Part shown: piece by piece, positions 6,729 to 16,585 of the stretch
Layout of the letters: each line of letters opens with the position of its first letter
Position numbering within the stretch: position 1 is the stretch's first letter
Virus genome (UHGV): UHGV-0131805
Reading direction: 5' to 3' (one strand)
Length of the DNA: 16,585 nt
Origin: a virus
Position numbers and translations under genes: made by a program
Notes under the pieces: model-generated
Database searches by the model: none
Told to the model about the DNA's origin: nothing
The model's input: the letters and a program-made list of their open reading frames with translations, nothing else

Positions 6729-7229
6729 TCAGACTTTCGGCAAATCGTAACGACATAACCATTCATCCGCCGAACGGCGGGCCTCAAGACCGGGGAGTTT
6801 CACCCCCTTCGAATAAATCCAGCGGATATACTGCTTACAGGACGCGGGCATCTGCCCGGCATTGATAAGGCGCAGGAGCGTGGAGTTGCGAAAGTTAGTT
6901 TCACCGGCCCAGAAAATCCAGGAGGCCAGCGCCACCGTCTGACCACGGGTAAGCGGCACCTGAACATGACGATCGATAGCCGCAAAGGCCCATTTCATGT
7001 CCTTTTCCAGCAGCTCAAGACATTCTTCATCGGTTTTTGTCATACCCGGTTTCACATCCGGCCCGGTATGGCCGTAACAGATGGTGAGGGTGCCGGTGGG
7101 ATCAGTGTACGTGGTGTTTTCTTTCCCTTCCCAGTAGCCGGTGTAGTGCGTGGCAATGGTGAACGTCCCGGCTCCGGCCAGAACAAGGGCAATCAGCTTT
7201 TTACGCAGTGGCGCGGGGAGTTTTGGCAT
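6729..7229 (-). CDS. SAR endolysin (phage lysozyme, T4-lysozyme-like catalytic triad)
   Basis: N-terminal basic stretch plus weakly hydrophobic Gly/Ala-rich segment (RKKLIALVLAGAGTFTIA) typical of signal-anchor-release domains. Then EGKENTTYTDPTGTLTICYGHTG, giving the E-x8-D-x5-T triad of lysozyme-family endolysins. Confidence 0.8.
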   Translation of the reverse strand: MPKLPAPLRKKLIALVLAGAGTFTIATHYTGYWEGKENTTYTDPTGTLTICYGHTGPDVKPGMTKTDEECLELLEKDMKWAFAAIDRHVQVPLTRGQTVALASWIFWAGETNFRNSTLLRLINAGQMPASCKQYIRWIYSKGVKLPGLEARRSADEWLCRYDLPKV

Positions 7230-7230
7230 T

Positions 7231-7268
7231 GTTACGCTGTCTCATGGTGTTCTCTGAGTCAGCGTAAC
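7231..7268 (-). promoter_or_regulatory. 14-bp inverted repeat (one central mismatch) with 10-nt spacer, ending 2 nt upstream of the endolysin start codon
   Basis: Plus strand GTTACGCTGTCTCA (7231-7244) and TGAGTCAGCGTAAC (7255-7268) are reverse complements except one position. In the minus-strand mRNA the 3' arm covers the region where the lys Shine-Dalgarno would sit. Confidence 0.4.
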
Positions 7269-7300
7269 CGTGGGGAAAAGAGGGCAGGATTTGCGGAATA

Positions 7301-7723
7301 TCAGAAAAGCCGGGGCTGCGTGCGCTCCTGATGCAGGCGACGCTGGTTGCGGATAACGGAGTAAATCTGCGTCTCTGACATCTGGTAGTGGCGGCGCAGG
7401 GTTTCAATTTTTTCGCCCTGGCTCCAGCGGGAAAAAATTTCATTATTGCGCAGCTCGGTGAAAAGGGACTCACCGACCGGGAGATAATAACCACGCCCGC
7501 CCATGTACCCGGCCTGAGCGGCCGCAACCTTACGGGCAAGCATACCCGCCTGAGCAGGTTCAATCCCCTGACGGTGCAGTTCAGCACTGATTACATCAAC
7601 CAGGTCACGCAGCGTGCCGGGCCAGTTCTTTTTCAGCTCATCATCAGGAATGTCATCCAGACGGTCAATCAGCGCGTGCAGCTGTTCGCTGTCACCAAAC
7701 ATGCTCATCTGTGTTTCAGCCAT
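7301..7723 (-). CDS. Mor/C-family phage transcriptional activator
   Basis: 140-aa protein immediately downstream of the GemA-like gene and upstream of lys, with a basic C-terminal region as in Mu Mor/C. Only one Mor/C-type gene is present, so Mor versus C cannot be distinguished. Confidence 0.6.
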   Translation of the reverse strand: MAETQMSMFGDSEQLHALIDRLDDIPDDELKKNWPGTLRDLVDVISAELHRQGIEPAQAGMLARKVAAAQAGYMGGRGYYLPVGESLFTELRNNEIFSRWSQGEKIETLRRHYQMSETQIYSVIRNQRRLHQERTQPRLF

Positions 7724-7754
7724 ACCCGCCTCCGGTCATCATTACACTGGGCAA

Positions 7755-7789
7755 GTTTAAAATAAAAATCCCGCGCTGTGGCGGGATTT
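7755..7789 (-). terminator. Rho-independent terminator-like hairpin on the minus strand between the GemA-like and Mor/C-like genes
   Basis: 9-bp stem AAATCCCGC / GCGGGATTT (7766-7774 and 7781-7789), 6-nt loop, followed on the minus strand by TTATTTTAAA. Confidence 0.5.
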
Positions 7790-7793
7790 GGGG

Positions 7794-8306
7794 TTAACGG
7801 GGGAATGATTTTTCATACAGCCTGCAAACACGCTCATAACTCATCACTGCACGCTCCGACATATCCAGGGCGGCCAGCATTTTGCGGCGGTGCCAGCGTT
7901 TGAGACGCTCCAGCACATCAGAGGCCAGCGCGGGGTGTTGCTCCAGCCACTGCCAGTTAGCCACACCTTCGCCGCCGTTCTGCGCGGCCGTCTGCGATTT
8001 CACCCAGCGGTTAAGGGCCGTTTCCCCGCCATCAGCGATAAATCCCTGCCGGTGCATCACTTTCCAGATGGCGCGAATTTTGGCGGTCACCGTACCCGGT
8101 TTTAAGGCCCGGTTAACCGGTTTCTGACGCACTTTAAAACCGCGTTTTTTGAAAACATCCAGCACGCGGGATAACTCATCCGGTGACATATCCCGGCAAC
8201 TGGTTTTGCCGGTGGCCGCCAGCAGCGCGGATGTATAGGTTTCATGGTCAAGCTGTAGATCGCGTTTTGCGACATGTATTAAGGTAATCAGGGAAGCGCG
8301 ATTCAT
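7794..8306 (-). CDS. GemA-like (Mu gp16 family) early regulatory protein
   Basis: 170 aa; N-terminal LITLIHVAKRDLQLDHETYTSALLAATGKTSCRDMSPDELSRVLDVFKKRGF resembles the GemA/DUF1018 pattern as I remember it. Lies directly upstream of the Mor/C-like gene as in Mu. GGAG 9-10 nt upstream of the ATG. Confidence 0.55.
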   Translation of the reverse strand: MNRASLITLIHVAKRDLQLDHETYTSALLAATGKTSCRDMSPDELSRVLDVFKKRGFKVRQKPVNRALKPGTVTAKIRAIWKVMHRQGFIADGGETALNRWVKSQTAAQNGGEGVANWQWLEQHPALASDVLERLKRWHRRKMLAALDMSERAVMSYERVCRLYEKSFPR

Positions 8307-8319
8307 TATCGTGGCTCCA

Positions 8320-8348
8320 TAAAAAATGGGCGGTGTTACCGCACCGCC
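8320..8348 (-). terminator. Hairpin plus U-run on the minus strand at the 3' side of the AT-rich island, immediately upstream of the GemA-like RBS; possible terminator or attenuator
   Basis: 7-bp GC-rich stem GGCGGTG / CACCGCC (8329-8335 and 8342-8348), 6-nt loop, then on the minus strand CATTTTTTAT. Confidence 0.4.
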
Positions 8349-8378
8349 ATATTAACACTTCAAACGAAAAGGAATGTT

Positions 8379-8639
8379 ATGAATAAAGAGAAACAACCCT
8401 ATGATGTTGCAGCCTATGTTATTGCTTCAAAACTACTGAGCCTTCTGGTTGATAAAGGCATTGTAACCCCGTCTGAAGGAACGAATATCTGCACTTGCGC
8501 AAAAGAGCTATTACCCAGCGCATCTGCCATGCGGGCAACTTCCTCGCATGGAATGCAACTGGAGAAACTCCTTCAGGATGTTATTGATTCCTTTCCGGCA
8601 CAGGATCAAGAAGGAGATTCCGAACGTCAAACGCCTTAA
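8379..8639 (+). CDS. Hypothetical 86-aa protein; the only plausible plus-strand gene in the window
   Basis: AAAGGAA lies 5 nt before the ATG. No competing minus-strand ORF covers 8307-8510. Its 3' end overlaps the minus-strand gene 8581..8898 by 59 nt. Product not recognised. Confidence 0.4.
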   Translation: MNKEKQPYDVAAYVIASKLLSLLVDKGIVTPSEGTNICTCAKELLPSASAMRATSSHGMQLEKLLQDVIDSFPAQDQEGDSERQTP

Positions 8640-8898
8640 TCTCATGATCCCGTGTGATAATATCTGACTCATCAAGGCCAAGCCTGCGTCGAATAAATTC
8701 GTTGCGGGCTTTTTTGTTAAACAACACAATTTCATCCTCAATCATTGCGATTTCATTATTAATAACGAATTGCGTCTCCGTGACAGTTAAACCCTGTTCA
8801 ATTGCCATTTCCACTATCACCCGCATTCTCTCCAGCATTCCCGCTTTTTCCAGTTCTTCGTTAATATCTTTACACTCAAATTTGATTTCTTGTTCCAT
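8581..8898 (-). CDS. Hypothetical acidic 105-aa protein, last gene of the AT-rich island
   Basis: Start set at ATG 8898 (MEQEIKFECKD...), one nt after the TAA stop of the upstream zinc-ribbon ORF; the ORF-track start at 8913 is a GTG. E/D-rich composition. No motif recognised. Confidence 0.5.
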   Translation of the reverse strand: MEQEIKFECKDINEELEKAGMLERMRVIVEMAIEQGLTVTETQFVINNEIAMIEDEIVLFNKKARNEFIRRRLGLDESDIITRDHEIKAFDVRNLLLDPVPERNQ

Positions 8899-8899
8899 A

Positions 8900-9043
8900 T
8901 TATTCATTCTCACAATTCATACATGCAGTGTCGTCGCCCATATCGCAGAGATTACACTTGCTCTCACCACAATATGGGCACTCTTTCAGATACTCCGGAG
9001 CCTCATTTCCACAGGTGGGACATTCAACAATTTGCTCATCCAT
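8900..9043 (-). CDS. Small zinc-ribbon protein with four CxxC motifs (47 aa); absent from the ORF track because it is under 60 aa
   Basis: Hand translation of the minus strand gives MDEQIVECPTCGNEAPEYLKECPYCGESKCNLCDMGDDTACMNCENE. Motifs CPTC, CPYC, CNLC and CMNC. AAGGAG lies 7 nt upstream of the ATG; stop TAA is 1 nt before the next gene's ATG. Confidence 0.5.
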   Translation of the reverse strand: MDEQIVECPTCGNEAPEYLKECPYCGESKCNLCDMGDDTACMNCENE

Positions 9044-9058
9044 TATCTTTCTCCTTAT

Positions 9059-9229
9059 TCAGTCTTCTGCGACATTCGGCACAGTCATCAGGGCTTTCAA
9101 ATGTATCCGGCTCGCGATTATGAGCCAGATATAACCACCGCCTACATATACTGATATTATCGCCTGTTTTAAAAAATGATGCTTCTTGGCCATCAGAGGA
9201 CGCGCCCATCCAGCGGGTAGACTATTCAT
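9059..9229 (-). CDS. Small 56-aa ORF with a central hydrophobic segment; absent from the ORF track
   Basis: Hand translation gives MNSLPAGWARPLMAKKHHFLKQAIISVYVGGGYIWLIIASRIHLKALMTVPNVAED. ATG overlaps the end of the upstream gene (ATGAATAG) and is preceded by GGAGG at 9-nt spacing. Coding status uncertain. Confidence 0.35.
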   Translation of the reverse strand: MNSLPAGWARPLMAKKHHFLKQAIISVYVGGGYIWLIIASRIHLKALMTVPNVAED

Positions 9230-9554
9230 TTGCTTTATCCTCCATACTGGACAGAATCATATGTATTAATGTCGGGCGTGGAGATATACGCATTTCATTA
9301 AGCGTCTGAAGGGCAGCAACAGCTGCCTGTTTATCGGTGCCTTTGGCAATTTCCGCAAGAGAATGCACAATCCATAACGGACTTAACGCCACGACTGAAT
9401 CCAGAATCATGTCATCCATAATAATTTCTGACACATCCCGCTTGTCACATTCCTTATCCATAAAAGAAACGATTTTTTCCACATCTTCCGGTTTCATGCC
9501 TCCGGCGATAAGAATTTTGCGATACTCATAAGACGATCTTAATTCAATACTCAT
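9222..9554 (-). CDS. Hypothetical acidic protein (about 110 aa) in the AT-rich island
   Basis: ORF-track start 9596 overlaps the stop of the upstream membrane gene (ATGA), but the in-frame ATG at 9554 (MSIELRS...) has AGGAG at 6-nt spacing and is preferred. D/E-rich. No motif recognised. Confidence 0.5.
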   Translation of the reverse strand: MSIELRSSYEYRKILIAGGMKPEDVEKIVSFMDKECDKRDVSEIIMDDMILDSVVALSPLWIVHSLAEIAKGTDKQAAVAALQTLNEMRISPRPTLIHMILSSMEDKANE

Positions 9555-9592
9555 ATTCATCTCCTGTAACTCTGACAAGGACGTGATTTTTC

Positions 9593-9778
9593 TCATTTAT
9601 GTTTTCCAGTAATACGTATATATATGTCGATAAGAAGATTCATAATAAACAGGAAGAGCGACATCCTGATAAAGAACCAAATATCTGGCATCATGGACAG
9701 GTTTCCTGTAATCGCAAATATAAAACCAACCCCCAACACCGGAACGATAATTGCGAAAAATACAAGTCTCTTTATCAT
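9593..9778 (-). CDS. Small membrane protein (61 aa, two predicted TM helices), first gene of the AT-rich island
   Basis: Two hydrophobic stretches (LVFFAIIVPVLGVGFIFAI and FFIRMSLFLFIMNLLIDIYI). ATGA start/stop overlap with the upstream 183-aa gene; GGGAG 9 nt upstream. Strongly AT-rich codons compared with flanking genes. Confidence 0.5.
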   Translation of the reverse strand: MIKRLVFFAIIVPVLGVGFIFAITGNLSMMPDIWFFIRMSLFLFIMNLLIDIYIRITGKHK

Positions 9779-10326
9779 GGCGTTAACTCCCGTAATACAG
9801 CGTCCTCGGCAGTCCGGCGACGGTAATAAACAGCGTGAGCAGAATGTTCAGATATGCCAAACTTTTCGCCAATTTCCCGGAATGACAGACGGCGAGGGTA
9901 ATCGGAATCCCGTAGTGCACGTATAAGACGAACATCCTCATCAGATATACGTGTGCCGGGGCGTAACTCACCGCACTTTGTTAATCCGGCACCAATCATT
10001 CCTGCGCGGCACCTGACAGAGTCTTTATTACGTCCGAGATAATCCCCCATTTGCTGGCAGGTCATTGTCCGGGCATTTTTTCGGATAAATTTATCTTCAT
10101 CAGGTGTAAATCGCGGTCGTTTATATTTCAGCAACTCCGGGTATGTACTGCGCAATACGCCAGTCCGGTTATATACGGCCCAGACACTTCTTTTTATTCT
10201 GGCGGCAATATCCTTGACCGGGGTGGAGGAATAAAGCGCAATCAGCAGCGCGTCTTCTTCAGGTGTCCACGGGCGGACATGAGCGGGTGCACAGCCTTTT
10301 CCCCCCATGGGTTGTAATTTCATCAT
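9775..10326 (-). CDS. Hypothetical DNA-binding protein (183 aa) with two tandem W/F-TP-[ED]ED helix-turn-helix-like repeats and a C-terminal HTH-like segment
   Basis: Internal repeat visible in the translation: WTPEEDALLIALY...VWAVYNR and FTPDEDKFIRKNA...VRCR (Myb/SANT-like spacing). C-terminal LSFREIGEKFGISEHSAHAVYYRR resembles an HTH. Family not confirmed. Confidence 0.45.
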   Translation of the reverse strand: MMKLQPMGGKGCAPAHVRPWTPEEDALLIALYSSTPVKDIAARIKRSVWAVYNRTGVLRSTYPELLKYKRPRFTPDEDKFIRKNARTMTCQQMGDYLGRNKDSVRCRAGMIGAGLTKCGELRPGTRISDEDVRLIRALRDSDYPRRLSFREIGEKFGISEHSAHAVYYRRRTAEDAVLRELTP

Positions 10327-10329
10327 GCA

Positions 10330-10845
10330 TCACCCCCTGACTCGCTTTTCAGCAGCATAAAACTCGTCTGACAGTATTTCGGTCATTTTCTGTTTTGCGG
10401 GTTTTACGCCGCACTGAAGGTAAATCACATCATCAACACAGAACCATTTCACGGGGCCATACAGGATTGCCGAGAAATCAATGCCCAGCCAGAACAACAG
10501 GGCATCGGTTCTGGCATACGTGACGGGCGAATATTCACGCCACAGACTGTTCAGTTCGTCAGAGGCAGTGCGCAGGGCTTTGGGAATGCGCGATGTGCGC
10601 GGCGTGCAGCTCCAGCCATTCGCCGCTGTCGGTTTTCGCCATAAATCACGATGAAAAGGATATTTGTCATCCGTAAAACGCAGCCCCTTAAAACAAAAGC
10701 CACTGATACCGGATACAAATACCGGGCGGCACTCAACATTCAGCACGGCCTCAAGGCGTTTTGCCTCATCCTTAACTTTCTGGCAGTCCTGCTGATATTT
10801 TTGCCACGCAGCCAGCGCGGAAGGGTTTGATGTTTTAAAGAACAT
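10330..10845 (-). CDS. Hypothetical early-region protein (171 aa)
   Basis: Start ATG overlaps the upstream stop (TAATG); GGAGG 8 nt upstream. No motif recognised. Confidence 0.5.
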   Translation of the reverse strand: MFFKTSNPSALAAWQKYQQDCQKVKDEAKRLEAVLNVECRPVFVSGISGFCFKGLRFTDDKYPFHRDLWRKPTAANGWSCTPRTSRIPKALRTASDELNSLWREYSPVTYARTDALLFWLGIDFSAILYGPVKWFCVDDVIYLQCGVKPAKQKMTEILSDEFYAAEKRVRG

Positions 10846-11378
10846 TACGCCACCTCCGCAGATATCCCGGCAGGCGCTGCTGTCCGGTCAACAATCAGGT
10901 AGCGCAGAACATGTTCAGTGATATTCCAGCCGCTTAAACCGCAGATAATGACACCCAGGCGAATGTCGATATACGCCATCACAAACTGGGGCACACCTTC
11001 TTTCATGGCCTGCTCATCAACTTCAGCCACCACATAAACGGTTTCACAGGTCAGTACGCCCTGAGCAAATTCCCACGCCATCGACGGAATATCATGCCCC
11101 TCAATCCACGGCAGGGACTTTCTGAAGCTGCACCACTGAACATCATCAGCCGCACATTCCTGGCTGCATTTGCGACGAACCGGCTGCACCGGGCGGGGAC
11201 GCGGAATATCATAAAAACCGTTACATTCCGTCAGCACGCCTGCATCAACCGCATCACGCAGAAAATAAACCATGGAGGATGGCGGCATATTCATTTTTTC
11301 AGCCAGTACACCGCAGGTCAGGCGGCCATAAATACGCAGCCAGTTTTTAACCCCTTCAAGCACTTTTGCATCAATCAT
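10845..11378 (-). CDS. Hypothetical early-region protein (177 aa), possible N-terminal winged-helix
   Basis: ORF with GGGGA 9 nt upstream of the ATG, downstream of a 145-nt AT-rich gap after gam. N-terminal region (LTCGVLAEKMNMPPSSMVYFLRDAVDAGVL) is HTH-like. Family not recognised. Confidence 0.45.
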   Translation of the reverse strand: MIDAKVLEGVKNWLRIYGRLTCGVLAEKMNMPPSSMVYFLRDAVDAGVLTECNGFYDIPRPRPVQPVRRKCSQECAADDVQWCSFRKSLPWIEGHDIPSMAWEFAQGVLTCETVYVVAEVDEQAMKEGVPQFVMAYIDIRLGVIICGLSGWNITEHVLRYLIVDRTAAPAGISAEVA

Positions 11379-11523
11379 GAATTATTTCCCCACCACATTA
11401 TTAATGACGATGTAAACGTATTTCATATTTCTTACCCCTTATTTTCTGTTTTCAGGCGCAAGCAGTCCCCTGACGCGAGCGCCATAATTAAAATGAAGTG
11501 ATATTTAATTGATTAATTCGGTG

Positions 11524-12054
11524 TTATTTATTCAGTCCGGCGTCCTGTTCAAAAGGCTCGACATAAAAACTTTCAGCGCCTTTATTCACCTTAATACCGG
11601 CAATGCCTTTCACCGCATCCGGCTCCGCCAGGACCGCTTCCTTATTCACTTCCTCTTTCGTGCGGATGAAACGCTCAAGGCCCATACGGCGCAGCATTTC
11701 AATCACACCTTCCACATCACGGCTGACGCTGCATGATGGATTTCCCAGTCGCCATGACACCGTTCCGGTGGTCAGATTAGCTGTTTTGGTTTTTCCGCCG
11801 TTCGTCAGCTCATCGCGGTTGGTTTTGCACCAGTCCTGAATCCCTTTAAAAAGCACTTTGATTTGCTTTTTAAGATTTTCAATCTGCGGCGTATAACGGG
11901 CGGTGATTTCTGCCACTTCATCATTCATTGCCGTTTCCAGGCGCAGCGCCTCTCGCTGAATATCTCCCAGGGTGCGGATATCACGGCTGACTTCTTCCCG
12001 GGTCTGCGGTGCCGCCTCGGCTGCGGCCTTTAATTTTGTAATGCGTTTAGCCAT
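11524..12054 (-). CDS. gam: Gam, host-nuclease inhibitor protein (Mu Gam / Ku-like DNA-end-binding family)
   Basis: 176 aa. Segments such as LETAMNDEVAEITARY, TNRDELTNGGKTKTANLTTGTVSWR and LERFIRTKEEVNKEA closely track Mu Gam as I recall it. AAGGA RBS. Confidence 0.8.
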   Translation of the reverse strand: MAKRITKLKAAAEAAPQTREEVSRDIRTLGDIQREALRLETAMNDEVAEITARYTPQIENLKKQIKVLFKGIQDWCKTNRDELTNGGKTKTANLTTGTVSWRLGNPSCSVSRDVEGVIEMLRRMGLERFIRTKEEVNKEAVLAEPDAVKGIAGIKVNKGAESFYVEPFEQDAGLNK

Positions 12055-12065
12055 TTTGTTTTTCC

Positions 12066-12359
12066 TTATTGCAATGTGTCAGGTGCTTTCTGCAAAGAGC
12101 GGTGCTCAATGCTGCCATTCACCCCCAGAGCCTGCATGGAACCCTGAAGTTCATCTGTCAGAAACTGAATAATTGTGGGGCTGTGATATTTAAGAATTTG
12201 CGCATAAACATCACATGGGCCTGTCGGTCTGTTCTCCGTATCACGTTCGATTTTTACAGTGGCAGTAACACCCTCCGTGATTTCCTCACTATCATTACCG
12301 GCTGGCTTTACTTCATGCATTACGTGGTCAAATTCAAAAATAACGCGAACTTTGCTCAT
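12066..12359 (-). CDS. Hypothetical small protein (97 aa), paralog 1 of a tandem pair
   Basis: Starts MSKVRVIFEF...; ends ...QALGVNGS.... Start moved from the ORF-track position to ATG 12359, 4 nt after the stop of paralog 2, with AGGGG upstream. Confidence 0.5.
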   Translation of the reverse strand: MSKVRVIFEFDHVMHEVKPAGNDSEEITEGVTATVKIERDTENRPTGPCDVYAQILKYHSPTIIQFLTDELQGSMQALGVNGSIEHRSLQKAPDTLQ

Positions 12360-13359: not shown

Positions 13360-13587
13360 TTAGCTGATTCGTTTTGCACCGATAAAACGACAAATATTGC
13401 TGTAAGCTTCTTTCGCACCTTCACGATCAAGTCCTGCCGATATTGCCATTCTGGTGCGATCATTAAATTCAAAAAGTAAATCGCCACATCCTTCACTGTC
13501 AGACACGGAGACTGCTTTGACGTTATCGAAATTCACCAGGTGAAAGCGTCCGTAAATATCAGGAATATTAAATGCAATCATAATCAC
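13360..13587 (-). CDS. Hypothetical small early protein (75 aa) immediately downstream of B
   Basis: ATGA start/stop overlap with the MuB-like gene. No motif recognised. Confidence 0.45.
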   Translation of the reverse strand: MIMIAFNIPDIYGRFHLVNFDNVKAVSVSDSEGCGDLLFEFNDRTRMAISAGLDREGAKEAYSNICRFIGAKRIS

Positions 13588-14516
13588 ACCTGTGAGAGTA
13601 ATTCAGGGTTGGCATAAACCTCTTTAAAGGCCGCATTAATATGTTTTTCTGTCAGCGCCGCGCCTTCACCACTGGCGGTGATCCACGCCTGGTTAAGTGT
13701 ATGTGTCAGAACACGTAACGCTCCCGGCTTTTCAGCGATCGCCTGCATGACGGCCAACTCTGCCTCACCACTGATACCCCATGCACGGGCAATAGCCAGC
13801 ACATCGGCCTTTTTGGCCTTGCGAAGTTGTTTTGTACGGGCAAGACGGCTGAACAGGCGCGATAAATCATCAAAGGCGCGGCGTCCGCCTTTAAACAGCC
13901 CCTTTGGGTTACCGATAAGCACCATCCCGATCCCCGTGGCGTCCTGAATTGCCCGGAGTTGCTCCAGACCGTCAATACCAAGATGATCCGCCTCATCCAC
14001 AATCACCAGTCCGCGCGTTCCCATCAGGCGACGGCGGATGGCGCGGGACAGTGCCCCTTTGTTCGCGCGGGTGTAATCAATCCCCAGCGCATCGGCCAGC
14101 TCCAGCAGACACTCCGTGACGCTGGAGTGCGCGGGTGACAGGGTGATCATCCAGGTGTTTGGTTGCTCCTGGCAGTAATTACGGGCGGTGGCCGTTTTAC
14201 CTACCCCCGGCACGCCCACTATGACGTTAATACAGCCCATCAGGCGAACCGCCTGAAACAGCGCGCGCAGTTCCTGGACTGTCTGCGTTTCCACAAACTG
14301 CGGCGGTTCCGGCAGTGCGCTTTGGTTATTCCAGTTCTCATACCAGGAATGCAGGGAAGCCGCCACAGCAGCGTTATCGCCTTTATATTTTCCCTTGCGG
14401 AAAGCCGATAATGTGCCGTCAGAAATACCCGCCTCTCTGGCGATGGCATACTGCGTCAGTACGCCGCCATCAATAAGTTCATCTATGGTCTTGATTACAT
14501 CGTTAATATCAGTCAT
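13584..14516 (-). CDS. B: MuB-like DNA transposition protein B (AAA+ ATPase, target DNA activator)
   Basis: Walker A GVPGVGKT and Walker B LVIVDEADHL in the translation. Segments LPEPPQFVETQTV, LSRAIRRRL, KKADVLAIARAW and EKPGALRVL track Mu B as I recall it. Directly downstream of the transposase gene. Confidence 0.85.
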   Translation of the reverse strand: MTDINDVIKTIDELIDGGVLTQYAIAREAGISDGTLSAFRKGKYKGDNAAVAASLHSWYENWNNQSALPEPPQFVETQTVQELRALFQAVRLMGCINVIVGVPGVGKTATARNYCQEQPNTWMITLSPAHSSVTECLLELADALGIDYTRANKGALSRAIRRRLMGTRGLVIVDEADHLGIDGLEQLRAIQDATGIGMVLIGNPKGLFKGGRRAFDDLSRLFSRLARTKQLRKAKKADVLAIARAWGISGEAELAVMQAIAEKPGALRVLTHTLNQAWITASGEGAALTEKHINAAFKEVYANPELLSQV

Positions 14517-14597: not shown

Positions 14598-16585
14598 TCA
14601 GGCCAGCGGGTCATTTTCTTTTAATTTCGCTTCAAGCAGCTGTAATCCCCGCTGGAAATTACGCTCGTATTCTTCGTCAGGTTCATCATCAATCGCTGGC
14701 TGCTGAACGGTCACCGTATTACCCACAGGGCGGTATATGTTTTCCAGCCATGGCTCCTGCGGCTTGTGCTCCAGCACGTTGACCACCTCATCCTCGGCAT
14801 CACGAATTTTTTCCTCTGCGCGTTTACGCATGCCTTTAAGACGCTGCTGCTGTTTGTAGTATTCCGCGCTGACCGGGAAGGCTTCGCGTTTATTGCCGTC
14901 CCATACCGCCTCGCAAATCACGCTGCCATCCAGGCGACGCACGGTAATTCGTTCGGCATCATGAATGTCATAGCTGATAAGCACCTTACGGCCATGCTCA
15001 TCACGCAGCTCGGGCGCGTAGTAAATATTATTCAGCCAGCGTATTTCGCAGCGTCTTACAGGGCGTTCCACCATCGGCCGGAACATATCCCGCAGCTCAA
15101 CATCGGACAGCCATTCAATTTCCGTGTCCTCTTCTGCCAGGCGTTTTTTTCTGAACTCCGCCGGGCTGTAATGCTTACCGTTCGGCTTCATCGGTAATTC
15201 ATCGTGCGGCCGGTTGTTGTACCACTCAACACCGTCACGAATGGCATCAATCAGTTCAGACCAGGACGGTAAATCACGCATCGCTGACTGCTGCCGGGCG
15301 TTCAGCCGCTTACCCTGTTGCAGGGCAGTGAATGCCGAGCGTAAATCGCGGTTGGTTTTGCGTAACGTCTCGCGATCTGCACCTTTTCCGAAATAGGTGC
15401 GGTATTTACGGGCTATGCGCATCGGTAATGTGCGGTTAAGCCGTTCGATAATGCCTCGCCCCTGCGGATTCCCGGCAATTCCGGTCGGGTGATTAATCCC
15501 CAGGCGCGGCAGGATCCCCACAACCTCCTTATCCAGGATGTCGGCGGTTTCCCCCGAGCCGTTATCCGAGTAATACAGGAACGGTTTGCCGTGATGGCGA
15601 ATACCGTGCTGTATGGCCCCGGCTACGGCGAAAACATTTTCAGCCAGGTCAAGGCTCCAGCCCACCACAAAGCGCGTACCACCGTCGATAACAAAGGTCA
15701 CTTCCGGTGCAAATGGCCGCCCGTGAACCGGGTGCGCACATTTCAGCTTCATGCCGTGACCGTCACCAATCCAGACATAATTCACCGGCATTTTTGACCA
15801 GTCGCGGCGCGTGAATCCCTCAAGCGGGGGGTATTCACTGCCGGTCACCCGGCCTTTTTGTTTCACCACTTCCGGCAGTTTCTTCATTGCGCGGCGAATG
15901 GTGTCATAAGAGGGCATGATATCGAGCATATAAGGCTCATCAGCGTGCCGGTGTTGCCATTCAGCAACAAAATCCTCGTAAGCCTCGGTCATGGGGCGGC
16001 CGTTTGACTGGCGATACTGCACCAGAAAATCGGGTAGCCAGTTAATATCTTCGGCCTTTATTTCCTTGCGTTTGCCTGGCGCCAGTAAAAGCAGGCGTTC
16101 AGTAGCGTTCTGCGCCTTGTTAAAGGCCGCAATCCAGCGTTTCAGCGTGATTTCACTCAACACGCGGCTGTTTCCCTTTTTGGCGTTTGCCGTCTCAACC
16201 ATTGCCACAATGCGCTCGTCCAGCTGCGAACGTGCCAGGTTGTCAACGATAAACCGGATAGCCTTCGCGCAGCTGAAACCGGGTTGTTGTGCGACTTTCA
16301 TCACTTCGCTGACGATCGCGATTCGTGCATCAGCCACCTGACGCTGATTTTCGGTCAGGGCATTGAGGCGTTCGACCATCAGTTGTGGTGATCCGCGATA
16401 TGCCTCCACCGCATCAACCACGGCTGATGAGCGTCTGGCCTTTGTCACCACCGGAGCCGGTGATTCGTCGGCTTTTTGCGTCATCAGTTGCAGGGCGTAG
16501 CGTTCGCGTACTGCCTGCTGAACAGTTAAAGGCAAAGCTCCTATTTCACACTCTAAAACTTTCCCTTTTACCCCTGGTTTTAGCC
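14598..16585 (-). CDS. A: MuA-like DDE transposase, 5'-partial (N-terminus lies beyond the right window edge)
   Basis: DDE triad context VWIGDGHG, LYYSDNGSGE and GRGIIERLNRT. The reading frame is open from 16535 to the window end, and that in-frame extension (GVKGKVLECEIGALP) resembles the Mu A segment GVKGGKAIEYNANSLP that I recall lying roughly 35-50 residues into MuA. Confidence 0.85.
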   Translation of the reverse strand, partial: LKPGVKGKVLECEIGALPLTVQQAVRERYALQLMTQKADESPAPVVTKARRSSAVVDAVEAYRGSPQLMVERLNALTENQRQVADARIAIVSEVMKVAQQPGFSCAKAIRFIVDNLARSQLDERIVAMVETANAKKGNSRVLSEITLKRWIAAFNKAQNATERLLLLAPGKRKEIKAEDINWLPDFLVQYRQSNGRPMTEAYEDFVAEWQHRHADEPYMLDIMPSYDTIRRAMKKLPEVVKQKGRVTGSEYPPLEGFTRRDWSKMPVNYVWIGDGHGMKLKCAHPVHGRPFAPEVTFVIDGGTRFVVGWSLDLAENVFAVAGAIQHGIRHHGKPFLYYSDNGSGETADILDKEVVGILPRLGINHPTGIAGNPQGRGIIERLNRTLPMRIARKYRTYFGKGADRETLRKTNRDLRSAFTALQQGKRLNARQQSAMRDLPSWSELIDAIRDGVEWYNNRPHDELPMKPNGKHYSPAEFRKKRLAEEDTEIEWLSDVELRDMFRPMVERPVRRCEIRWLNNIYYAPELRDEHGRKVLISYDIHDAERITVRRLDGSVICEAVWDGNKREAFPVSAEYYKQQQRLKGMRKRAEEKIRDAEDEVVNVLEHKPQEPWLENIYRPVGNTVTVQQPAIDDEPDEEYERNFQRGLQLLEAKLKENDPLA

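What the first reader, a model, noticed from the sequence alone, without database searches (positions are those of the whole stretch)
9775..11378. Three mid-sized early genes after gam, including a protein with tandem Myb/SANT-like repeats
The 183-aa protein carries an internal duplication (WTPEEDALLIALY... and FTPDEDKFIRKNA...) plus a C-terminal HTH-like segment. Such repeats are unusual for a phage early protein and suggest DNA binding, perhaps regulation of the downstream AT-rich island, to which it is translationally coupled by an ATGA overlap. The two upstream proteins (177 and 171 aa) are also unrecognised.
Basis: partly seen in the sequence, partly recalled or inferred. Interest (0 to 1): 0.45.

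Follow-up and report, generated by a model that had tools for sequence, protein, structure and literature searches.

The report
Mu-like prophage Myb-repeat early protein
These are three ordinary early genes of a Mu-like E. coli prophage: the Mu gp11 and gp12 homologs, then a small basic protein of three Myb-like DNA-binding units that databases already label as SANT/Myb-like and whose biological role is still untested.

Summary
Three tightly packed minus-strand ORFs follow gam: 177 aa (10845-11378), 171 aa (10330-10845) and 183 aa (9775-10326). The last overlaps the next ORF by ATGA.

The two "unrecognised" proteins are the Mu gp11 (69% identity, Pfam Gp11_C) and Mu gp12 (54%) homologs. Both families are conserved and of unknown function.

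The 183-aa protein has three Myb/SANT-like three-helix units, not two plus an HTH:
- Profile comparison gives R1 vs R2 E 4.5e-17 and R2 vs R3 E 5e-7.
- The AlphaFold model has pLDDT 89.
- The family profile hits c-Myb at E 6.6e-8.

It is not unusual. RefSeq already calls it "SANT/Myb-like DNA-binding domain-containing protein", it falls in PHROG 323, about 9,700 clusters of related proteins exist, and Mu gp9 is a two-repeat homolog.

Each of the 48 Mu-like early regions examined carries exactly one family member. Homologs also sit in P2-like early operons.

The gene occurs as deeply diverged allele cassettes that differ mostly in helix 3.

Regulation of the downstream AT-rich stretch is not supported. 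That stretch contains the Mu gp13-15 homologs and varies independently of the allele.

Most likely the protein is an accessory sequence-reading DNA binder of the early operon. Low interest.

The parts
11524..12054 (-). gam (context): host-nuclease inhibitor, Mu Gam family
   Evidence: Pfam Phage_Mu_Gam E 1.4e-41; 57% identity to Mu Gam
10845..11378 (-). 177-aa homolog of Mu gp11, function unknown
   Evidence: 69% identity to Mu gp11 over the full length; Pfam PF25754 Gp11_C E 5.8e-41; phrog_1949 E 3e-106; no PDB relative by sequence or profile
10330..10845 (-). 171-aa homolog of Mu gp12, function unknown
9775..10326 (-). 183-aa basic protein made of three tandem Myb/SANT-like three-helix units plus a C-terminal helix
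   Evidence: pI 9.9; under purifying selection, dN/dS 0.27 between alleles
10141..10275 (-). Repeat 1 (residues 18-62; helices 22-31, 37-44, 48-61), begins with the invariant W20
   Evidence: AF2; hhalign R1 vs R2 E 4.5e-17; aligns to c-Myb repeats
9994..10116 (-). Repeat 2 (residues 71-111; helices 75-84, 90-97, 101-110)
   Evidence: AF2; hhalign; aligns to the first repeat of Mu gp9
9817..9954 (-).
   Evidence: AF2; hhalign R2 vs R3 E 5e-7; weak Pfam HTH_AsnC-type, HTH_10 and sigma-70 region 4 matches; aligns to the second repeat of Mu gp9
9775..9778 (-). ATGA stop/start overlap with the next ORF; also the sharp 3' boundary of the allele cassette
   Evidence: sequence; against type II prophages DNA identity is 0.69-0.73 across 9801-10100, then 0.99 in 9701-9800
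9593..9778 (-). 61-aa hydrophobic ORF, first gene of the AT-rich stretch (context)
   Evidence: phrog_19804 E 1.2e-5; annotated as a CDS in RefSeq
9222..9596 (-). 124-aa ORF of unknown function (context), overlaps the 61-aa ORF by 4 nt
   Evidence: phrog_1988 E 1.8e-44

Best explanation
The window is the early ('semi-essential early') operon of a Mu-like transposable prophage of E. coli.

After gam come the Mu gp11 and gp12 homologs, both of unknown function. Then comes a 21-kDa basic protein that is a string of three Myb/SANT-like three-helix domains.

Proposed mechanism, inferred from fold and family: the protein is made early after induction from the single early transcript. It binds double-stranded DNA as a monomer, placing the third helix of each unit into successive major-groove positions, as c-Myb R2R3 and the GcrA DNA-binding domain do. 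It thereby reads an extended site and acts as an accessory, non-essential regulator of phage or host DNA transactions.

It is the three-repeat counterpart of the two-repeat Mu gp9. Each Mu-like early region examined carries one or the other, never both and never neither.

The gene exists as old, recombining allele cassettes whose differences concentrate in the three putative recognition helices. This suggests that different alleles read different sequences.

Shown here: gene identities, repeat architecture, fold, family relationships, distribution and allele structure. Inferred: DNA binding itself, the monomeric reading mode, and any regulatory role. The target is unknown.
For: Gene identities.

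Three repeats: hhalign and the AF2 model at pLDDT 89.2.

Sequence homology to the Myb DNA-binding domain: family profile vs 1h88_C E 6.6e-8, B-Myb 1.5e-7.

Basic protein, pI 9.9.

In other proteins the same repeat is found next to a helicase domain (P0022). In mycobacteriophages, matches to it lie under genes annotated as HNH endonuclease or DNA methylase. Both are consistent with a DNA-targeting module.

Mu gp9 is a homolog of repeats 2+3: probability 98.3%, E 1.6e-14.

There is exactly one family member per locus in 45 Mu-like loci of the 183-aa type and 3 of the gp9 type.

Early-operon position is kept in P2-like phages, between cox and gene A.

It is a real, constrained gene: dN/dS 0.27 at dS 0.5-0.8.

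Variability is concentrated in helix 3 of each repeat: entropy 0.90 vs 0.39, permutation p < 5e-5. dN/dS is 0.5 in helix 3 vs 0.18-0.20 elsewhere.

The cassette has a sharp boundary at the stop codon.
Against: There is no experimental datum for any member of this family, Mu gp9 included. The literature searches found nothing.

No candidate binding site was found. There are no operator-like repeats, and no DNA outside the gene co-varies with the allele in the part of the prophage covered.

In DNA-binding Myb orthologs with a common target, helix 3 is usually the most conserved part. Here it is the most variable.

Only the first of the three regularly spaced tryptophans of canonical Myb repeats is kept.

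This protein's own Pfam Myb score is just below the gathering threshold.
Confidence: 0.6

Rival explanations
1. One reading: the 183-aa protein is a dedicated regulator of the AT-rich genes immediately downstream, for example counter-silencing or activating an internal promoter.
For: It is adjacent to the AT-rich stretch and coupled to it by the ATGA overlap. The downstream stretch has GC 0.42. The protein has a DNA-binding fold.
Against: The genes share one strand and are tightly packed, and promoter-like sites are no more frequent than in shuffles (7 found vs 7.9 +/- 2.9 expected).

The stretch includes the Mu gp13/14/15 homologs, which are present in Mu without this gene.

Downstream gene content changes among prophages independently of the allele of the 183-aa gene.

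Homologs occur in P2-like phages with unrelated neighbours.

No DNA in the island co-varies with the allele.
Confidence: 0.08
2. The repeats act as SANT-like protein-interaction modules rather than DNA readers. The protein would bind a host protein (RNA polymerase or sigma factor, a nucleoid protein, or a defence protein), and helix 3 would vary because it tracks a variable protein partner.
Against: The protein has a strongly basic pI of 9.9. The family profile aligns best to the DNA-binding c-Myb and B-Myb repeats. The same unit is found next to a helicase domain, and matches to it lie under genes annotated as nuclease or methylase. The GcrA sigma-interaction domain is absent, with no Pfam GcrA match at E <= 1. 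There are no matches to defence-system models.
Confidence: 0.15
3. The protein is the DNA-targeting subunit of a complex with the neighbouring conserved proteins gp11 and/or gp12, directing an activity of theirs to particular DNA.
For: The order gam-gp11-gp12-183aa is invariant in 45 Mu-like loci and the genes are tightly coupled. In other proteins the repeat is found next to a helicase domain, and matches to it lie under genes annotated as nuclease or methylase.
Against: Mu and its relatives keep gp11-gp12 without this gene, and place the related gp9 before gam instead. Two gp9-type prophages have no annotated gp12-sized gene at all. P2-like phages carry the homolog without gp11 or gp12. gp11 and gp12 show no enzymatic fold.
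Confidence: 0.07

Closest known systems
Phage Mu gp9 (E8, Mup09), PHROG 323 'transcriptional regulator, D5-like'
   Same: Same repeat family. Mu gp9 aligns to repeats 2 and 3 (hhalign 98.3%, E 1.6e-14, 28% identity). The 183-aa protein matches phrog_323 at E 1e-51. Both are encoded in the Mu-type early operon, one per phage.
   Different: Mu gp9 has two repeats (99 aa) and lies just upstream of gam. This protein has three repeats plus a C-terminal helix and lies after gp12. Pairwise BLAST similarity is insignificant. Neither has a tested function; the PHROG label is an annotation only.
Eukaryotic Myb DNA-binding domain (c-Myb R1R2R3; Pfam PF00249/PF13921) and SANT domains
   Different: Only the first aromatic residue of the tryptophan triad is conserved. 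This protein's Pfam score is 0.9 bit below threshold. The third unit is closer to bacterial HTH_AsnC-type and sigma-70 region 4 motifs. It is a bacterial virus protein with no other domains.
GcrA DNA-binding domain (Caulobacter crescentus, PDB 5yiu)
   Different: GcrA has a single DNA-binding domain plus a C-terminal sigma-70-interacting domain, which is absent here. There is no Pfam GcrA match at E <= 1.
AsnC/Lrp family regulators (the name many database entries give to this protein)
   Same: A weak match of repeat 3 to the AsnC-type HTH (PF13404, E 7.7e-4, 19.7 bits against a cut-off of 27).
   Different: There is no RAM/ligand-binding domain and no winged helix. The label 'AsnC family protein' is a misnomer.
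Tandem homeodomain-like DNA binders such as the archaeal CRISPR-repeat-binding protein Cbp2 (PDB 2lvs) and the bipartite Tc3/mariner transposase DNA-binding domains
   Different: Different families and biological contexts. The resemblance concerns architecture and probable mode of binding only.

Membership tests
Myb/SANT-like DNA-binding domain (PF00249, PF13921) | Unit of about 50 residues folding as a three-helix bundle | tested here: met
Myb/SANT-like DNA-binding domain (PF00249, PF13921) | Significant match to the family profile | tested here: inconclusive
   This protein scores 23.5 bits against a gathering score of 24.4 (E 6e-5). Homologs reach the threshold: P0024 at 24.4 and the L046 homolog at 24.6 bits. 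The family profile hits c-Myb at E 6.6e-8.
Myb/SANT-like DNA-binding domain (PF00249, PF13921) | Three regularly spaced tryptophans forming the hydrophobic core of each repeat | tested here: not met
   Only the first position is aromatic (W20 invariant, F73 in repeat 2). The second and third positions are not tryptophan in alignments A1 and A2.
Myb/SANT-like DNA-binding domain (PF00249, PF13921) | Sequence-specific DNA binding through helix 3 | not testable with these tools
   This needs EMSA, DAP-seq or ChIP. The only indirect support is pI 9.9 and variability concentrated in helix 3.
Mu gp9 / PHROG 323 family | Significant profile match and homology to Mu gp9 | tested here: met
   phrog_323 E 1e-51. 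hhalign to Mu gp9 gives 98.3%, E 1.6e-14.
AsnC/Lrp family | N-terminal winged HTH plus a C-terminal RAM (AsnC_trans_reg) domain | tested here: not met
   Only a sub-threshold HTH_AsnC-type match (19.7 vs 27 bits) and no RAM domain. The model is all-helical with no beta-alpha-beta-beta-alpha-beta domain.
GcrA family (PF07750) | GcrA-type DNA-binding domain followed by a sigma-70-interacting domain | tested here: not met
Mu gp11 family (PF25754 Gp11_C) | Profile match above threshold and full-length similarity to Mu gp11, in the position after gam | tested here: met
   139.2 bits against a cut-off of 27. 69% identity over 177 aa. Synteny shown.
Mu gp12 family (PF26885, phrog_2314) | Full-length similarity to Mu gp12, in the position after gp11 | tested here: met
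   54% identity over 169 aa, E 7e-68. phrog_2314 E 1.4e-84. All homologs carry precomputed PF26885; the local Pfam copy lacks that model.
Anti-phage defence systems (PADLOC) | Match to any defence-protein model | tested here: not met
   No match at E <= 0.01 for the three proteins or seven neighbouring ORFs.

The most novel reading that the evidence does not exclude
Each of the 48 Mu-like early operons examined carries exactly one member of this Myb-like repeat family: two-repeat gp9 before gam, or the three-repeat protein after gp12. The three-repeat gene circulates as ancient allele cassettes that differ mainly in the three putative recognition helices.

The least ordinary reading not excluded is that this is a conserved but overlooked function of transposable phages with exchangeable DNA specificity. 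For example, it could be a factor that directs host-gene shut-off, or transposition or replication target choice, to allele-specific sites. That would be analogous to immunity-specificity swapping in lambdoid phages.
Probability: 0.1. Interest if true: 0.5.

Novelty: already known. Interest (0 to 1): 0.2.

Why it matters
It matters little as it stands. The genes are recognisable members of described, though functionally uncharacterised, phage families, and the Myb-like nature of the 183-aa protein is already in RefSeq annotation.

Three small points may be useful:
1. Many records call this protein 'AsnC family protein'. That name is wrong.
2. Mu gp9, an unstudied gene of a model phage, belongs to the same repeat family. 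It appears to be interchangeable in occupancy with the three-repeat form, which gives a simple genetic entry point: delete gp9 in Mu and complement with this gene.
3. The alleles differ mainly in helix 3. They offer a natural specificity-swap series if the protein does turn out to bind specific DNA.

Tried and rejected
- Literature searches for Mu gp9, gp11 and gp12 and for phage Myb-like proteins found nothing on function. The one useful passage defines the Mu semi-essential early region (PMC4553209).
- NCBIfam gave no useful match.
- PADLOC gave no defence-model match.
- Single-sequence PDB searches gave nothing significant for any of the three proteins. A gp11 profile search returned only chance-level MIF matches, E > 0.2.
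- The search for operator-like direct, inverted or tandem repeats in 7200-12200 and across the window found only chance-like two-copy matches.
- The search for prophage DNA co-varying with the two alleles of the 183-aa gene found that 65 of 67 discriminating positions lie inside the gene itself. No phage-borne target can be nominated.
- Scans of species-representative genomes were uninformative: none for Mu gp9 and one distant Verrucomicrobial locus for the family.
- An alignment-based scan of viral contigs with the diverse alignment failed for lack of conserved stretches. It worked with the closer alignment.
- Rejected: a transposase-type HTH role specific to Mu ends, because P2-like phages carry the gene too.
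- Rejected: an AsnC/Lrp regulator, because there is no RAM domain.
- Rejected: a GcrA orthologue, because there is no sigma-interaction domain.

Full report
**What the window is.** All long ORFs lie on the minus strand. Pfam and PHROG matches identify the following:
- the Mu B-like ATPase gene at 13584-14516 and a transposase gene at 14598-16535;
- gam at 11524-12054 (Phage_Mu_Gam E 1.4e-41);
- gemA at 7794-8306;
- mor at 7301-7723.

The same DNA at 80-96% identity is present in 232 of 5,426 complete E. coli genomes. RefSeq annotates it there as a Mu-type prophage. The finding therefore lies in the 'semi-essential early' region of a Mu-like prophage. [quoted passage not shown]

**Check of the observation.**
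- The three ORFs have the stated coordinates and lengths.
- gp11/gp12 overlap by one base (TAATG).
- The gp12 stop is 3 nt before the ATG of the 183-aa gene, and its last codons form the Shine-Dalgarno sequence for that gene.
- The 183-aa gene overlaps the next ORF by ATGA.
- The two quoted motifs are at residues 20-32 and 73-85.
- On the single sequence the duplication is only marginal: z 3.3, with 25 of 2000 shuffles as good.
- With profiles from 32 homologs it is unambiguous: R1 vs R2 probability 98.8%, E 4.5e-17.
- The C-terminal segment is a third, more diverged copy (R2 vs R3 E 5e-7).

**The two upstream genes.**
- The 177-aa protein is 69% identical to Mu gp11 over its whole length. It matches Pfam Gp11_C at 139 bits.
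- The 171-aa protein is 54% identical to Mu gp12. It matches phrog_2314 at E 1.4e-84, and its homologs carry PF26885.
- Both families were found only in Mu-like prophages of E. coli and Salmonella in these searches, and are annotated as hypothetical.
- Neither has a solved relative.
- They are recognised families, but their function is unknown.

**The 183-aa protein.**
- The AlphaFold2 model has mean pLDDT 89.2. It shows three three-helix bundles (helices 22-31/37-44/48-61, 75-84/90-97/101-110 and 129-140/149-156/160-169) and a final helix at 173-181.
- Next come Cdc5, WER, c-Myb, SNAPc4 and the Tc3 transposase DNA-binding domain.
- By sequence, the family profile hits c-Myb (E 6.6e-8), B-Myb (1.5e-7) and v-Myb chains.
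- This protein's own Pfam Myb score is 23.5 bits against a threshold of 24.4. Two homologs just reach the threshold.
- Of the canonical tryptophan triad, only the first aromatic position is kept.
- The protein is basic, pI 9.9.
- The label 'Myb/SANT-like' is justified. 'AsnC family protein', used in many records, is not, because there is no RAM domain.

**How common it is.**
- RefSeq already names the near-identical protein 'SANT/Myb-like DNA-binding domain-containing protein'.
- It matches PHROG 323, 'transcriptional regulator, D5-like', at E 1e-51.
- A profile search of 1.84 billion representative proteins gave 9,711 hits at E <= 0.001. Many are long proteins with 4-9 tandem copies of the same unit, and one has an N-terminal helicase domain.
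- In mycobacteriophages, matches to the unit lie under genes annotated as HNH endonuclease or DNA methylase.
- Foldseek against viral models finds many phage proteins with the same units, all uncharacterised.
- The repeats are therefore not unusual for a phage early protein.

**Relation to Mu.**
- Mu has no gene at this position. Relative to Mu, the 183-aa gene and the small ORFs up to the gp13 homolog (including the 61-aa and 124-aa ORFs) lie between gp12 and gp13. The window keeps homologs of Mu gp13 (8900-9043), gp14 (8581-8913) and, on the plus strand, gp15 (8379-8639).
- Mu gp9 (E8, 99 aa), encoded just before gam, is a two-repeat homolog of repeats 2 and 3: hhalign 98.3%, E 1.6e-14. Pairwise BLAST does not see this.
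- A family HMM run on six-frame translations found exactly one member in every locus held. There were 45 Mu-like loci with the three-repeat gene after gp12. Three loci (Mu and two E. coli prophages) had the gp9 type before gam. Twenty-one loci outside Mu-like phages also each had a single copy.
- gp9-type DNA occurs in 90 complete E. coli genomes.
- Homologs at 35-47% identity lie in P2-like phages, in the early operon between cox and replication gene A.
- The common denominator is a position in the early lytic operon of temperate phages of Enterobacteriaceae.

**Allele structure.**
- Among otherwise 92-99% identical prophages the gene has two forms, at 93-99% and about 72% protein identity to the window copy.
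- Against type II prophages, DNA identity is 0.79 in 10101-10200 and 0.69-0.73 across 9801-10100. It returns to 0.99 in 9701-9800, just past the stop codon.
- 65 of the 67 positions that discriminate the two forms lie inside the gene.
- The divergence is old (dS 0.5-0.8) and the gene is under purifying selection (dN/dS 0.27).
- Amino-acid variability among 27 distinct Mu-type sequences is concentrated in helix 3 of each repeat: mean entropy 0.90 vs 0.39, permutation p < 5e-5, Mann-Whitney p 8e-6.
- dN/dS is 0.5 in helix 3 against 0.18-0.20 elsewhere.
- This is what one would expect if alleles read different targets. It is also compatible with a weakly constrained or protein-contacting surface.

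**The island hypothesis.** The stretch 8307-9774 is AT-rich, GC 0.42. Four points count against the idea that this protein regulates it:
- It belongs to the same packed operon, and promoter-like sites in the region are no more frequent than in shuffled sequence.
- Part of it is conserved Mu genes.
- Its content varies among prophages independently of the allele of the 183-aa gene.
- Homologs in P2-like phages have different neighbours.

No repeat arrays or co-varying sites suggest an operator. The hypothesis is not excluded, but nothing favours it.

**Most likely mechanism.** The protein is an accessory early protein that binds DNA through three consecutive Myb-like units, each presenting helix 3 to the major groove. 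It would read an extended site whose sequence may differ between alleles. It fills the same niche as Mu gp9.
- Shown here: architecture, fold, homology, distribution, selection.
- Inferred: DNA binding, mode of binding, regulatory role.
- Unknown: the target and the phenotype.

**Verdict.** The finding is real and correctly described, but ordinary. The genes belong to described families and the Myb-like label is already in public annotation. The modest additions made here are:
- the three-repeat architecture;
- the homology to Mu gp9, with one-per-phage occupancy;
- the misnomer 'AsnC family';
- the helix-3-focused allele cassettes.

Interest is 0.2.

Noticed in passing
window 9801-10200 (inside the 183-aa gene), boundary at 9775-9800: The gene is a mosaic allele cassette. 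Against otherwise 92-99% identical prophages (e.g. L030, L035), DNA identity is 0.79 in 10101-10200 and 0.69-0.73 across 9801-10100, then returns to 0.99 in 9701-9800, just past the stop codon. The first ~40 codons are shared. Differences concentrate in helix 3 of each repeat.
   Followed up: yes
window 8379-9043: The 'AT-rich island' contains homologs of Mu genes. These are a 47-aa Cys-rich ORF at 8900-9043 (85% identity to Mu gp13), the 110-aa ORF at 8581-8913 (44% to gp14), and a plus-strand 86-aa ORF at 8379-8639 (42% to Mu gp15, which is also on the opposite strand in Mu).
   Followed up: partly
window 11379-11523 (gam-gp11 intergenic): There is a 145-nt non-coding gap in an otherwise packed operon. 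It is the least conserved flank (identity 0.78-0.83 in 11401-11500). In many related prophages the gam-to-gp11 start spacing is about 1174-1197 nt instead of 676 nt, so an extra insert sits here.
   Followed up: no
window 8329-8348 and 7766-7789, minus strand: Two strong terminator-like hairpins with T-runs lie on the coding strand. One is just upstream of gemA (GGCGGTGCGGTAACACCGCC + TTTTTT) and one is between gemA and mor. This may mark a transcription boundary after the AT-rich stretch.
   Followed up: no
proteins P0022, P0025, P0027, P0030, P0031: These are metagenomic and bacterial proteins of 490-810 aa made of many near-identical tandem copies (5-9 matched stretches each) of the same ~50-aa Myb-like unit. 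One (P0022) has an N-terminal helicase (ResIII/Helicase_C) domain. Such long arrays of Myb-like units in bacteria or phages seem little described.
   Followed up: partly
L067 6912-8011 and L068 6943-7892: Two gp9-type Mu-like prophages of E. coli go from the gp11 homolog to gemA through only one or two small genes. They have no annotated gp12-sized gene, so gp12 is dispensable in some Mu-like phages.
   Followed up: no
window 9036-9209, minus strand: A 57-aa ORF between the 124-aa ORF and the gp13 homolog has a CxxxxC...CxxC pattern. It is possibly a second small zinc-ribbon protein and was not checked against annotation.
   Followed up: no
L046 4683-7184: In a P2-like phage the homolog of the 183-aa gene lies directly after a Dam-type (D12) DNA methyltransferase and a DUF4406 gene, and before an Ash-family gene. 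Given the GcrA-like fold (GcrA reads methylated DNA), the methylase neighbourhood may be worth a look.
   Followed up: no
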